NCBI GenBank assembly: GCA_964016885.1
Contig: OZ024741.1
Coordinates: 156,674,001-156,738,000, forward strand
Length of the DNA: 64,000 nt
DNA from: Eledone cirrhosa
Taxonomy: Eukaryota
Reading direction: 5' to 3'
Below, piece by piece: positions 2,470 through 62,862 of this stretch. Below the pieces are notes generated by a model. That model was not told the DNA's origin and made no database searches. It saw only the letters and a program-made list of their open reading frames with translations. The translations under genes were made by a program, and so were the position numbers. How positions within the stretch are numbered: position 1 is the first letter of the stretch; every line of letters starts with the position of its first letter.

Positions 2470-2740
2470 TATAACGAAGGAGTTGCGGTAAGGAACCAGA
2501 TGCACCAGAGTAGTAGAGTAGTAGGGTAGTAGAGTGGGTAATAAGAAAATGTATGACCCCGACGGCAGAACTCAAGCCGTTTCGACGGCTATTTCTGGAC
2601 TAAATTAGAATTTTTTGTCTGGTAAATAAATAGCCTAAAATAATAGGCTATTTATTTACCAAAATAAAAATTCAAATTTAGTCCATAAATAGCTGTCGAA
2701 ACGGCTTGAGCTCTGCCGTCGGGGGTCATACTTTTTCCTA
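2470..2740 (-). mobile_element. PLE-type fold-back insertion (family C): 3' tail plus inverted arms
   Basis: Imperfect palindrome ~2545-2740 centred ~2640, with an unpaired 75-bp tail at 2470-2545. Flanked by (TA)n; second copy at 11475. Confidence 0.65.
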
Positions 2741-2865
2741 TGTATATATAAATATAAATATATATATATATATATATATATATATATATATATATGTGTG
2801 TATGTACGTATATGTATATGTATATATATGAGTATATATATATATATATATATATATATATATAT

Positions 2866-3464
2866 AAACGGAAAAAATGAAACGAAATTTCATTTCCCAC
2901 TCTTAGTACGGCTGTTACTTAAATATAAGTATGTACACGTACATATATATATGTATACAGACGTACAGTAGTATGTATATATATATATACATACATGCAC
3001 ACATATATATATGTACGTATGGATTCACCGAACATTTATTATAATGCTCGGTGTGTTTGTAAACAAACATCCCGTATTAAGCCGTAGTGTCTAGCAACCA
3101 TCGTTGCTCGTTTGTTCAACACTGACAAAGGAACGATGTACTAGTTTCAAGCTTATTAGCTATCGTTAGTAACGTATACCTTCCTGCCAGATTGTTGAAC
3201 GTATATACTTACCTTATGCATATTAACAGCTGAGTAGCCCAATTTGCATATCGAGTGGGTTAATCGGCCGGGTGCACCGAAAACGATAAACGGAAAAAAT
3301 GAAACGAAATTTCCTTTCCCACTCTTAGTACGGCTGTTACTTAAATATAAGTATGTACACGTACATACATATATGTATACAGACGTACAGTAGTATGTAT
3401 ATATATAAACATACATGCACACATATATATATATGTACGTATGGACTCACCGAACATTTATTAT
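2866..3464 (-). mobile_element. Retrozyme/PLE-like 1.4-mer of a ~422-bp unit
   Basis: ~180-bp direct repeats at 2866-3043 and 3288-3464. Degenerate hammerhead CTAACGA-tagct/agctt-GAAACTAGTA at 3134-3174 (-). Both flanks are (TA)n. Confidence 0.55.
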
Positions 3465-4159
3465 ATATATATTATTATTATATATATATATATATATATA
3501 TATATATATATTTAATATATCTTTAATATATCTTTAAGTGTACACGTGTACATCTCATTACTGCTATTACTGCTATGCTTATGTGAAAATACATAGCATA
3601 TTTCTTATTGTATTAACTTGTTTTCTCTATGTTCATACCAGAAGCCATATTGTATTTATTATTCGAACGATTCCATAGAAATTTCTATAAATTCAAAATT
3701 TGTTAATTTTCAATTTTTAGTTTGCTTCGGAAGAAAATATTTATGGTATTTCATGATGTATAGATATCATTAAAGGTATTTATATTTGAAGGAAATAATA
3801 TGACAGTTTCTACATGAGGTTTTTTTAAGAAAAAGGAAAATATGACTTACTAATATATTAAATTATTCGTTTTTTCTGGTTTCAATCTGCGGTCATGCTG
3901 GGGCACTGATTTGATTTACTCCATCATTGAACCCGATTCAATATATATAACATTATAAGACATTTCATTTACCATTGCATCACATCACAATTTCAAATAT
4001 TCGGCAGTAATAAAATTTACACCTACAGCCTTATTGTTTGCCAGGGGTTTTAGGCCTTTTTTTTTATATTTCATCTTCTGAAGTATTCTTCGTTGAAATG
4101 TTGACACCATCGGAAGTACTACTAACTGTATGTATTATTAAATATAATTTAGCAGACTG

Positions 4160-57909: not shown

Positions 57910-59860
57910 TCAAGAAAATATATATATATATATATATATATATATATACATATATATATATACATACACATATATACACACATATATATATACATACACA
58001 TATACAAACACATACATACATATACACACATCCACACTTAGAACATACATATACACACATATATAAACATATACATATACACACATACATACATATACAC
58101 ACATACATATAAATACACATATATATATATATAAATATACACATACATACACATATAATCACACATACTATATAGACACACATATATATACACACATACA
58201 CGCACATATACATACACTTACATACTTATATACATACAGATATACACATACATACCTATATATACACACAAATACATACAGACATACATACATACATACA
58301 GACAAATACTTACGCATCTATATATCGGTATATACATACAAACACCACTACACTCTCACACAACTCAGACATACAAAGAAAAAGGTATATACCTATACAC
58401 ATATACATATACAAATAGAGAAACATATACATATATATGTATATATATACACATATATATATATATATATATATATATATATACACATACACATATACAC
58501 ACATACACATACATACACATACATACATGTACACACACATAGATATATATACACATACACACATACATACATACATATATAGTCATACACACACATACAC
58601 CTACACGAACATACACATACACATATATAAAGATATATATACACACACATACATACATACACACACACACATATATATAAAAAATAAAGATATATATATA
58701 TATATATATATATACATACATATACATACACACATACATAGACATATATGTACATACATACACATACATAGATACATACACACACATACATACATATATA
58801 TATACACACATAGACATATACATACATACACACACAACATACATACACACATATATACTCATACATAGAATTAGATATATATTCATACATACATACGCAC
58901 TTACATATACTCATATATACAAATACATACGCATCCATATATGCGTATATACATAGAAACACCACTACACCCTCACCCAACTCAGACATACAAAGAAAAA
59001 GGCATATATATATACATATATACACGCATTAATAGAGATATATATACACATATATATATATACATATATATACACATACACTTATATATATATATATACA
59101 CACACACACATACAACCATAAATACACATACAAACACCCACATATACATATATATACACATATATATATATACACACACATAAAAAACAGACATGCACAT
59201 ATATATATTTTTTTTTATTTTTTTTTTTATACACATATATATACACATATATATACATATACACACCCTCACATATACACACATACACATAAGTTATATT
59301 ATAATAATAAATAATATATATATACATATATATATATATATATATATATATATATATATACACATACGAATATAGACATATATACACACATAGATATATA
59401 TATATATATATATACACATACACATACACACACACATATACACACTCACATATATATGTGTGTGCACACACACATATATACACATACACACATATACACA
59501 TAAACACATATATGTGCATACATGCACACACACACATATATCCACATAGATACGAAGATAGACATATAAATAGAGAGACATACATATATATACACACACA
59601 CATATACATACATACATACACACACATATATATATATATATATATATATATATATATATATATATATATATATACACATACACATACACATATATATACA
59701 CATGCATATATACACACATACACATACATACACACATATATATACACACACAATCTTACATTCTTATTTGCATGCGCATATATGTATTTTTATATTCAGA
59801 TATAAATACCCAAACATATATACACCTACCTACATATATATTCATACATACACGCTTACA
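57910..59860. repeat. Compound (CA)/(TA) low-complexity block with a ~620-bp internal duplication
   Basis: caccactacac...aactcagacatacaaagaaaaagg at ~58345 and ~58960. Confidence 0.85.
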
Positions 59861-60059
59861 AACACAGATGATAATAGTATGGGGGAAAGGGGGGGGGTGG
59901 AGAAGGGGATTATAGTAAATATATGTTTCAAGAAACATAGAATATTATCCGTATCTGGATCCAATGTATGTTTTTACATAGTTTCAGTGTTAGGAAATAC
60001 AATAAACAAGAAATAAGGCAAAATTTATGCATTTCAAAATAAATAAGTATACTATTAAT

Positions 60060-61050
60060 TATATGTTAACTAAACTAAAGATAGTTAACATATTGATTTC
60101 TAAGGTGTAAATTAGTTAGGTTTATACTATTTGAAGCAGAATTTTGAAGTTAAATAGTAGTAGAGTATTAATTATAGTATAACTAAATTAAAGTTAAAAC
60201 GTTATGGTATCAATATTAGGAAATGAATTTAGTAATAGGGAAAAAAACAAATAAAGTATTACATCGGTAGTAGAATATAAATTAAAGGTTAACTAAATTA
60301 AAAATTATATATTTATTTCTATAGTATATGTTAATTAGGTATATAATAAATAAAACAGATATTGTATTTTATCAATAGCAGAATATAATTATATGCAAAT
60401 AGAAATCAAAATTAATACATATACATATATATATACATATACATATATATATACATATATATACATATATATATACATATATACACATATACACACACAT
60501 ACACATACACATACACATATACATATACATATTTTTTCAAAAATTGCAAAGAATATATTAACTAGGTATATATCCAAAACACATCCCATTCTATGATTAC
60601 ATGACATTCTGCAATTCGTCTGTATAAGGATACTAATTTTATGCCAATTAAATTAAATTTTTAGGTTGACTAAAATTAAAACCAAATTATAAATATATTT
60701 CTAAAATGTATATTAATTAGGTCTATAATACTAAAAATCATTTCTCTGTCATTGGATACACGATATTTTGTTATATTTTATCTGTAAAAGAATTATAATA
60801 AAAGGTTTAAATAAATTAAAATTAATCTATAAATTAAATTACTAAGTATATATTAGTAATATTTAAAGGTTTTTCACAATTTATGATTACATAATATTTT
60901 ATATTCTCATCTGTAATAGAATTTTAATTAAATTAAATTTATAGGTTAACTAACATTTAAATTAAATTAATTTCTAAAATAATGTTATTAATTAGGTTTA
61001 TAATATTTAAATGTTTTTTTTAGTTTATGATTACACGATATAATTAATTC
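60060..61050 (-). repeat. Degenerate 100-150-bp tandem array derived from the ORF end
   Basis: ggttaactaa...atttcta...attaattaggt.tata anchors at ~60116, 60335, 60563, 60717 and 60992. Confidence 0.65.
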
Positions 61051-62862
61051 CTGTCGTTTATTTAATAGGATATCCTTAGATTTCATTATTTCAAATAGTT
61101 CTTGGGAACATAATCTACATTCATTTCTATTATTTTGATAAGGGGTGGCTCTTTTGAGCACACTCCAGGTCAAATCATATTCTATATTCTTATTTTTATA
61201 ACTATTGATTTTTTCTGCTAGAGATGTTGTATTAGCCAGTGCGGCATTTTTAAAACTATGCTTGTGGGTATTAAACCTTGTCTTAAAATTGTTAGAGGTA
61301 GCTCCTATATATGAGCAAATAGAATCTTTAGTTTTAACATTACATTTATAGACTATGTTGTTAACAAGACAATTCCCTTTTAATGGGCAGTTTGCTTTGT
61401 TTCTACAGTTACAACCTTTCGTTAATTCTGTATTTGAGGAGATATTATGGTTAATTTGATGTACTGGTGGTATACTTATGGTTTTCTTACATTTATATGC
61501 ATTATAGGCACTTATATTTTGTTTTATGTTATTTGTTGTAGAGTATGAGAATTTAACTGTAGACCTATTTAAGATTTGATGGTATTTGTGGTTTGGCGGG
61601 AAGTTTTTCTCTAGGATATAAAAAAATTTTTTAGCAATATTATCCTTAATTTGTAAATTAAATGGAGCATTATACCAAGTAACACGTCTATTACGGTTTC
61701 TATGTTGTTTATTATTTTTATTATTTTTATAGGTTGTATCGTGATTTTTACTAGGAGGATTAATGTTAATGATCTCACCACAACCATTTTTAGTTATATT
61801 TGTAGATTTAGGTGTTTTATCCTTTTTATTAGGAGTTTTATTATTAATATTTATTAGAGTTGTATGATGAGTAGTTTTTTGAGAGTTACTATACTTTATA
61901 TTAGAAGATTTGGTATTTTGGGGTATAGTGTGGGTGGCATTTAGGTGTGTACTTTTCAATTGGTGTTTGTTGGTAATATTAGGTTGTATGCTTTCAGTAT
62001 TTTTAGTAGAAGGTATATATTCTAATCTATTTTTGTGGCCACTTCTATCTAGAGCTTCGTTATAGAAGGTCGCATTTTTATCAAATACATCTTGGTTAGA
62101 AGAAAGGTTAGAAATTCTAAGTGATATATTATATGCAAGGTTTTTAAGGATAGATTTAGGGTGATTAGATTGTGAGTGTATGTAATGTAAGTTTTGGTTT
62201 GGTTTATGGTAAGGTTGGTAGATACCCGTAGTTAAATCTAAAGTTATATCTAGGAAATTTACTACTTTACTTGTTTTTTCAAAAGTAATATTAAGATTAT
62301 AATAGTCTTTAAGGAAAGTTCTAATATGTTTTTTGTTTTTTTCAATTTCTGAAAGGCTAAGGTTGTTAGAAAGAAGAAGACAGTCATCACGATATAAACC
62401 ACCTTTGAGGTGGGGAAAGGAGGCATTTATGTTGAAAAGGAGAAAGAGGCCCACAAGATCAGTAATTTGGGCGGAATCGCTTGAACCCATAGTAATATCA
62501 AATAGATTACTATATGTGTTTCTGGTCCAGTATTCATTCTGAAATTCAATAAGTGTTAGTCTAGCATGTGTAATAATATTAATGTCATCCAAAGTTAAGT
62601 TAGATCTATTTTTAGCAAATATCAATGCTTTGTTCAGGAGTATAGGTGATATAGAAGAATAGTAATTATCTATATCAAATTGTAGAAATGAAGCAGAAGA
62701 TTTACATCTAATATTTTTAAACCAGTTAATTACCTGGGAGGTGTTTTCCCAGAGTGGTAAAATAACGTGTTTTCTTATTTGTGGGATGACTCTATCCAAA
62801 ATTTTTTTGCTAATTATTCCAATATCTGATTTGGAGGGACATATAAGTCTAATAGAAGGATT
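60988..62862 (-). CDS. Penelope-like RT plus GIY-YIG polyprotein (Naiad-type); 5'-truncated but uninterrupted (~624 aa)
   Basis: [71 protein letters not shown]. Confidence 0.93.

What the first reader, a model, noticed from the sequence alone, without database searches (positions are those of the whole stretch)
2470..62862. Window-wide (TA)n-targeting PLE/hammerhead system with fixed fold-back geometry
Seen: six sequence-unrelated families (A-F) sit in (TA)n tracts and share one architecture, a main arm with a 40-140-bp 3' tail plus an inverted arm lacking that tail. The arm/tail breakpoint is the same in independent copies (A 35724/44798; B 8659/44277; C 2740/11620; D 44710/56793), while the 5' junctions vary. 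In the smallest copies (8431, 11475) the main arm is little more than the tail. Known: Penelope shows tail-less inverted pLTRs and hammerheads. Inferred: a family-specific defined second priming or nicking point, and integration that regenerates (TA)n targets so that nests grow.
Basis: partly seen in the sequence, partly recalled or inferred. Interest (0 to 1): 0.75.

Follow-up and report, generated by a model that had tools for sequence, protein, structure and literature searches.

The report
Twin-primed Penelope ends in TA repeats
These lopsided mirror-image repeats are insertions of Penelope-like jumping genes into TA repeats, a known pattern, and their paired fixed ends suggest that each insertion is likely built by copying the element's RNA twice, from two set start points, onto the two cut DNA strands.

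Summary
Confirmed, largely known, and genome-wide rather than special to this window (28 more tailed fold-backs in 400 kb elsewhere). B and F are pLTR ends of autonomous Penelope-like elements (B Hydra-type, F Neptune-type). C and D lie downstream of GIY-YIG coding sequence. A is a non-coding 2.3-2.8 kb derivative. Arms end at two fixed sites, the breakpoint (P) or the tail end (D): 30 of 30 B arms, 13 of 14 E, 14 of 15 F. Tail, inverted pLTR and (TA)n bias are in print, and Frangieh 2024 showed in vitro that the tail lies between two internal RT start sites.

Added here: two-armed inserts nearly always pair one P with one D end. Either arm can be longer, which counts against snap-back. Both arms share source variants. 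Inner ends pile up at TATA/Inr-like motifs. P sits on 3-4 nt of TA microhomology.

Not supported: 'tail-only' copies as a special class, and regeneration of (TA)n by integration. Nesting is real (about 4-fold), and B carries its own TA-rich block. The scan reported this twin-priming reading several times before on other DNA of this genome.

The parts
2474..2740 (-). Family C fold-back C1: tail 2474-2540, main arm to about 2640, inverted arm ending at P (2740); 3' half of a hammerhead in each arm
8432..8659 (-). Family B fold-back B1: tail 8432-8499 plus 9-10 nt of main arm; inverted arm 8509-8659 ending at P
10774..10967 (+). Further fold-back family (G): arms 10774-10923, 44-nt tail; no hammerhead found by my scan
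11478..11620 (-). Family C fold-back C2: 80-nt tail plus about 9 nt; inverted arm 11565-11620 ending at P
35724..39008 (+). Family A fold-back A1 (non-coding PLE derivative with 513-bp internal repeats): inverted arm 35724-37570, main arm 37571-38865, tail 38866-39008
38757..38814 (+). Predicted minimal type I hammerhead of family A (CUGAUGA...GAAA, palindromic GAUC loop), predicted cut 55 nt before P
39142..44276 (-). Family B fold-back B2: tail 39142-39209, pLTR to 39725, element-borne TA/TG block 39726-42325, 3' UTR and endonuclease 3' end to 42858; inverted arm 42859-44276 ending at P
39225..39275 (-). Predicted type I hammerhead of family B, cut 21 nt before P; its 5' edge coincides with an Inr-like CCAGATT 30 nt after TATAAATA
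42556..42858 (-). 3' end of the family B ORF (GIY-YIG region with CxxC and CxH motifs)
44462..44709 (-). Family D fold-back D1: tail 44462-44517, palindromic arms
44797..54006 (+). Family A fold-back A2: inverted arm 44797-47135, main arm 47136-53866 interrupted by a later LTR element at 47523-51660, tail to 54006
54417..54609 (+). Family E fold-back: arms 54417-54542, 67-nt tail; family copies carry a minimal hammerhead (CUGAGGA...GAAA C AAUU G UU); the window's main arm has TAAA in place of GAAA
   Evidence: hammerhead read by eye
54678..55225 (-). One-armed partial tandem of another fold-back family (72-83% alike to L070), ending at its P site
55270..55838 (+). Family F fold-back: arms 55270-55801, 37-nt tail; pLTR of a two-ORF Neptune-type PLE
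55865..56790 (-). Family D fold-back D2: tail 55865-55920, main arm to about 56420, inverted arm 56433-56790 ending at P; predicted hammerhead near 56600-56640
56935..62862 (-). One-armed, 5'-truncated Hydra-type PLE: RT plus GIY-YIG ORF 60988-62862, AT-rich 3' UTR, TA/TG block 57918-59744, pLTR-like end

Best explanation
The families are head-to-head insertions of Penelope-like element (PLE) ends into (TA)n, each likely made by two separate target-primed reverse transcription events, one from each nicked strand of the TA repeat. Shown: arms end at two fixed sites, P (arm/tail breakpoint) and D (tail end); a two-armed insert nearly always has one of each; both arms share source variants; P overlaps 3-4 nt of TA register. 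Inferred: the GIY-YIG domain nicks both strands of the palindromic TA target. One 3' end anneals through a few TA bases at P and the other at D. Both cDNAs run toward the RNA 5' end, often reaching a start site inside the pLTR (short hairpins) or crossing a whole unit when primed at the downstream pLTR (long arms). The two cDNA 3' ends are then joined by microhomology, often at palindromes or hairpin stems. Each insertion splits one tract into two flanking targets, and B adds element-borne TA tracts, so nests build up.
For: Bimodal ends: B 11 P + 19 through the full tail of 30 arms; E 4 P + 9 D of 14; F 6 P + 8 D of 15, one running on into the ORF. P+D pairing: A 13 of 13 resolved two-armed loci among 16 fetched, including 4 where the P-ending arm crosses a whole unit and a D site; C 26 of 28 inverted arms within 2-6 nt of P. 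Both length orders occur (inverted longer / main longer by 15 nt or more: A 8/6 of 19, B 4/2 of 20, C 10/1 of 24), and in 3 of 19 A and 6 of 24 C pairs the main arm starts inside the tail, so the arms share no sequence (values read). Same source: arm-to-arm distance 0.4% against 2.3% between loci (B, 16 pairs) and 5.8% against 9.9% (C, 28 pairs), permutation p=1e-4. Inner ends: B 30 of 40 at -57..-68, C 30 of 48 at -52..-63, beside Inr-like motifs 30-31 nt after TATA-like motifs. TA microhomology at P: mean 3.4 nt against 1.65 at other positions, 20 families, 0 of 10,000 draws. Raw short reads of a related organism show loose TA ends at P (39209; 417 and 567 reads) and D, ends at 39272-39273, and strand-switch joints; for A, loose ends at 38870. 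In vitro precedent: PMC11167929.
Against: No RNA data: the start sites are inferred from motifs and pile-ups, and a stall at RNA structure fits C and A as well. In A the TATA-to-Inr spacing is 19 nt and only 10 of 38 inner ends lie at -206..-219. Exceptions exist: both arms with the tail (L045; L065), both ending at P (L140), eroded outer ends in 4 of 22 two-armed A loci, one-armed copies (3 of 16), one discordant arm pair of 28 in C (L034) and unequal 513-bp repeat numbers in the arms of A2. Frangieh reports initiation at a site not homologous to the cut DNA and no strand difference in start site, which does not by itself predict P+D pairing or TA microhomology. Gene conversion could add to arm likeness. 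The raw reads are RAD-seq, with 1-3 distinct start places per joint.
Confidence: 0.7

Rival explanations
1. Snap-back (self-priming): one cDNA, or an antisense RNA, folds back on itself and is copied, giving the inverted arm; the copy stops or is cut at P.
For: Proposed from junction palindromes in PMC3846280 (passages). Some junctions here are perfect palindromes (L104 at TGATCA, L123 at TCGA). The arms share variants.
Against: A sense-cDNA snap-back needs the inverted arm nested in the main arm; an antisense-RNA snap-back needs the reverse. Both orders are common, and 9 of 63 pairs share no sequence. In 4 loci the P arm is longer by a whole unit.
Confidence: 0.12
2. Two RNA molecules from the same source locus, for example paired through the palindromic hammerhead loops or held by a protein dimer, are each copied once. 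This differs from the best explanation only in template number.
For: No strand displacement is needed. Palindromic stem III loops occur in A, B, C and E. A dimeric protein is predicted in PMC11167929. Arm lengths are only weakly correlated (Spearman 0.38, 0.45, 0.22), and there are rare discordant pairs (L034, A2).
Against: Near-complete concordance at polymorphic sites (B, 16 of 16 pairs at the variable columns) needs strong same-locus pairing, which is hard for the trans-mobilised non-coding family A.
Confidence: 0.35
3. P is an endonuclease cut or resolution site on the cDNA or the intermediate, not a priming site.
For: PMC8557442 attributes the tail to 'EN-mediated resolution'. P sites are TA/AT-like, which is what the endonuclease prefers.
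Against: PMC11167929 mapped both tail ends as RT start sites. Arms that contain a P site internally and end at the next P or D are common.
Confidence: 0.15
4. Assembly or sequencing artefact (chimeric fold-back reads).
For: Inverted repeats in TA-rich DNA are prone to such errors; no long read of this individual was seen.
Against: The arms differ by 0.4-12%, have family-specific asymmetric ends, and recur in thousands of copies. The same ends and strand switches appear in raw short reads of another organism.
Confidence: 0.02

Closest known systems
Hydra clade of C-terminal EN+ PLEs (Craig et al. 2021, PMC8557442; section 11 read whole, other passages by search)
   Same: Family B's 714-aa ORF (L197) has RWR, DKT, CxCx5C, CxxC and CxH and no CxxC inside GIY-YIG; the window ORF at 60988-62862 has CxCx5C, CxxC and CxH. 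(TA)n targets, hammerhead, inverted 5'-truncated copy and one-sided tail are all described there.
   Different: Tails here are 37-143 nt against 30-40 nt described. B carries a 1.7-2.6 kb TA/TG block in its 3' UTR. The P+D pairing and the inner-end pile-ups are not in the passages read.
Poseidon PAc of Anolis, in vitro (Frangieh et al. 2024, PMC11167929; parts 1-2 of 4 read, supplements not read)
   Same: Two internal RT start sites bound the tail, downstream of a hammerhead; both strands of an AT-rich target are nicked and extended; hammerhead cleavage is not needed.
   Different: PAc's sites lie inside the ORF; B's tail ends about 47 nt before the start codon. The paper reports no homology to the target, whereas P here overlaps TA by about 3.4 nt. 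The text read does not address how inverted arms form.
Neptune-type PLEs (as defined in PMC8557442)
   Same: Family F's RT-EN ORF has DKG, CX4CxxC and CxxC plus histidines in GIY-YIG, with an upstream ORF in another frame; a frameshifted ORF1 is named in that paper's Fig. 1 legend.
   Different: No hammerhead was found in F by my scan; no tree was built.
PLE hammerheads and non-LTR retrozymes (PMC4209133, passages; bioRxiv 10.64898/2026.07.22.740005, part 1 of 5)
   Same: Minimal type I hammerheads with a palindromic stem III loop; the U3-A8 core variant seen in C is already reported; hammerhead pairs on opposite strands 100-700 bp apart are reported. A is a non-coding tandem unit with a hammerhead.
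   Different: A's unit is 2.3-2.8 kb and mostly dispersed as fold-backs.
L1 twin priming (recalled; PMC2837659 seen only as a search listing)
   Same: Two primers from the two target strands, with a head-to-head join by microhomology.
   Different: In L1 (recalled) the second site is variable and the arms barely overlap; here both sites are fixed and the arms duplicate the same sequence.

Membership tests
EN+ Penelope-like elements | RT followed by a GIY-YIG endonuclease, linked to the repeat | tested here: met
   B (L197) and F (L319) whole; C and D only by GIY-YIG or RT fragments read upstream or in the other arm
EN+ Penelope-like elements | Partial-tandem pLTRs, inverted 5'-truncated copy, one-sided tail | tested here: met
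EN+ Penelope-like elements | Hammerhead in the pLTR | tested here: inconclusive
   Predicted in A, B, C, D and E (by eye); not found in F or G; cleavage not tested
Hydra clade | RWK-like and DKT motifs | tested here: met
   B ORF has IRWRAF and SDKTKN
Hydra clade | CxCx5C linker, CxxC and CxH in the endonuclease, no CCHH | tested here: met
   B: CNCLNKEAC, CDLC, CMH; window [19 protein letters not shown]
Hydra clade | Placement in the RT tree with named Hydra members | not tested
   No named reference set was fetched; the 120 listed homologues carry no clade names
Neptune clade (family F) | DKG, CX2-5CxxC linker and CCHH | tested here: met
   EADKGG, CGDPRCGTC, CPQC with downstream histidines; by motif only
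Non-autonomous PLE derivative (family A) | pLTR, hammerhead and tail without an RT ORF | tested here: met
   Longest frame in a 2,802-bp unit is 119 aa; its mobilising partner was not identified
PLE two-site RT initiation (PAc type) | RT starts mapped at both tail ends | not testable with these tools
   Genomic ends fit; no biochemical or RNA data (one search listed no RNA holder)

The most novel reading that the evidence does not exclude
PLE integration is an obligate asymmetric twin-priming reaction: a dimeric enzyme copies one RNA molecule twice, from P on one target strand and from D on the other, using 2-4 nt of TA pairing and strand displacement, and runs both copies off the capped RNA start. 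Some families also carry their own (TA)n targets, so PLEs would be a main source of the TA-rich DNA of this genome.
Probability: 0.35. Interest if true: 0.72.

Novelty: new member of a known kind. Interest (0 to 1): 0.42.

Why it matters
How PLEs make inverted ends with a one-sided tail is stated as open in PMC8557442, and PMC11167929 leaves the steps after initiation unvalidated. A genome with roughly 100,000 or more such inserts (9 per 200 kb of dispersed sample, a rough extrapolation) records the reaction and gives sharp predictions: one P and one D end per event, same-source arms, run-off at a pLTR start site. The elements and the geometry themselves are known, so the value lies in the test, not in a new kind of element.

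Tried and rejected
(1) Rfam gave no hammerhead among the 150 of 259 rows shown, only low-complexity miRNA matches. My first hammerhead script missed the A-D motifs because it demanded a paired stem II base; a relaxed scan found them. (2) Pfam did not name the PLE ORF. (3) I first thought main arms pile up at P because the D-primed enzyme collides with the P-primed one. Tail-complete queries biased this; samples chosen by tail-end pattern show ends spread through the tail in A and C. Only B keeps a weak excess (4 of 6 early stops within -11..+4, post hoc). Rejected as general. (4) Stops at the hammerhead cut site: one case (L047), no pile-up. (5) Self-homing: neighbours across the flank are mostly family C whatever the host family. 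Rejected. (6) A-to-G hypermutated arms as a one-RNA barcode, a lead from earlier notes: 0 of 797 alignments flagged, so untested. (7) DNA searches with the B tail and with 56940-57060 returned no candidates; these blanks show nothing. (8) No RNA holder listed. (9) No empty site or long read was obtained. (10) Literature searches returned no paper whose title, abstract start or read passages state P+D pairing; the library lacks most subscription papers, and I read no supplements (Frangieh Fig. S2 and Craig files S1-S2 may bear on this). PMC13282606 (part 1 of 3) lists active Penelope families in an octopus without this anatomy in the part read.
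Full report
Setting. The window lies at G000:C2:156674001 in a 3.0-Gb assembly. The only animal-named homologue among the 120 listed for the window's RT is from Argonauta, so a cephalopod host is likely (inference). TA tracts cover 7.0% of the window and 5.7% of 400 kb fetched elsewhere (output).

Observation. Self-BLAST and reading confirm the fold-backs and the paired breakpoints for A, B, C and D to within 1-3 nt, with tails of 37-143 nt. From 35724 to 62862, nine elements follow one another separated only by TA tracts. 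The pattern is not special to the window. A scan of 40 ten-kb tiles plus the window gave 140 inverted-repeat rows, 41 of them flagged as tailed fold-backs, 29 outside the window. I dropped one duplicate and one doubtful row and added one with a 278-nt tail, leaving 28 (19 in 200 kb of flanks, 9 in 200 kb dispersed); with 7 window entries they form 20 families. Exact 30-31-nt patterns match 966 A tail ends, 6,497 B tail ends and 15,065 B arm ends.

What they are. B is the pLTR of an autonomous PLE. L197 holds a whole unit: tail, a 714-aa uninterrupted ORF with Hydra motifs, 3' UTR, a 1.7-kb TA/TG block, and a pLTR ending at P. F leads into a coiled-coil-like ORF and an overlapping RT-EN ORF with Neptune motifs in two copies. 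C and D lie downstream of GIY-YIG sequence (L146, L150; L003; read by eye). A is a 2.3-2.8-kb unit with no frame over 119 aa. E was not linked to an ORF. Hammerheads are predicted 17-55 nt before P in A, B and C and about 150 nt before it in D. C has the U3-A8 core already reported in PMC4209133.

Two fixed ends. Sampled by arm sequence alone, B arms end at P (11) or run through the full tail (19; 3 continue into the ORF) in 30 of 30. E gives 13 of 14 and F 14 of 15 at the two sites. B has a second P sub-site 5-6 nt earlier in 7 of 20 pairs. Across 20 families P overlaps the TA register by 3.4 nt against 1.65 expected. D is followed in the element by ATA (A) or TA (B). Raw RAD reads of a related organism show the same P and D ends, ends at 39272-39273 and strand-switch joints, so these are not products of this assembly; few distinct loci stand behind those reads.

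Pairing. Of 16 larger A loci fetched, 13 are two-armed and all 13 have one P and one D end. In four of them the P-ending arm crosses a whole unit, including a D site. In C, 28 of 30 tail-bearing copies (one is the window's own) have an inverted arm and 26 of these end within 6 nt of P. Exceptions are L045 and L065 (D/D), L140 (P/P) and 4 of 22 eroded A ends.

Mechanism tests. Arm-length pairs were read by hand. Three tandem-spanning or deleted A loci and one B locus were left out, and some C values were adjusted by eye where hairpin strands cross-match. Either arm may be longer, and 9 of 63 pairs share no sequence; a single snap-back rule cannot give both. Arms of one insert share polymorphic sites far more than arms of different inserts, while C arms still differ by 5.8%, which argues against wholesale conversion (inference). 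Inner ends pile at B -57..-68 (30 of 40) and C -52..-63 (30 of 48), at Inr-like motifs 30-31 nt behind TATA-like motifs. In A the fit is weaker (10 of 38 ends; 19-nt spacing). The Inr and TATA labels are recalled consensus motifs, not a tool result. Run-off at the RNA start is therefore likely but untested. Arm lengths correlate only weakly, so one RNA copied twice and two RNAs from one locus remain open.

Targets and nests. Another element end sits across the tail-side tract in 20 of 78 loci against 31 of 460 random tract sides; longer tracts and regional clustering are confounders. Flank lengths fit length-biased use of existing tracts, so regeneration by integration is not shown. B's TA/TG block is element-borne: 22 of 29 other B loci share 43-163 block-specific 16-mers, the other 7 have arms too short to reach it, and 89 control loci share at most 13. 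In L003 a D-family end abuts that block.

Against what is known. PMC8557442 describes inverted 5'-truncated copies, a one-sided tail and (TA)n bias for Hydra, Neptune and Naiad. PMC11167929 shows the two RT start sites and both-strand extension. PMC3846280 proposed self-priming from junction palindromes. My searches did not turn up the P+D pairing or the run-off reading in print, with the limits given under Tried and rejected. Earlier notes of this scan reach the same twin-priming reading on other DNA of this genome. I had twin priming as a 35% lead before reading them; the RNA-start idea was prompted by them and then tested on B, C and A.

Verdict. Real, well ordered and mostly known: new members of known PLE clades. 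The residual interest is a set of clear, testable rules for how the inverted ends form. Interest 0.42.

Noticed in passing
window 47523-51660: A Gypsy-type LTR element (about 270-bp direct repeats, broken gag/protease/RT/integrase frames) has inserted into the main arm of A2, so it is younger than that insertion.
   Followed up: no
window 9126-10704: A further PLE-like insert with a long-stemmed type I hammerhead (minus strand, near 9343) and a CxxC-containing GIY-YIG fragment near 10130-10400 on the plus strand; a related copy lies in L077.
   Followed up: partly
L319 4429-8015 and L321: Family F's full unit has an upstream coiled-coil-like ORF overlapping the RT-EN ORF in another frame around an A-run in both copies; may be a programmed frameshift (a frameshifted ORF1 is named in PMC8557442 Fig. 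1).
   Followed up: partly
window 13880-16850 (-): Broken L1/Tx1-type LINE with an RT fragment (Pfam RVT_1) and an AP-endonuclease-like frame.
   Followed up: no
window 57918-59744; loci L308, L310, L313: The one-armed Hydra-type element, and apparently F units, also hold long TA/TG/CA blocks between ORF and pLTR, so element-borne microsatellite blocks may be common to several PLE families.
   Followed up: no
tally: The B arm pattern matches 8,368 times forward and 6,697 reverse, while tail patterns are balanced; unexplained (perhaps a tandem array).
   Followed up: no
window 41-188, 13204-13391, 17755-18150, 25036-25227, 27855-28052: A dispersed SINE-like family of about 190 bp, several copies, some inverted; not TA-linked.
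   Followed up: no
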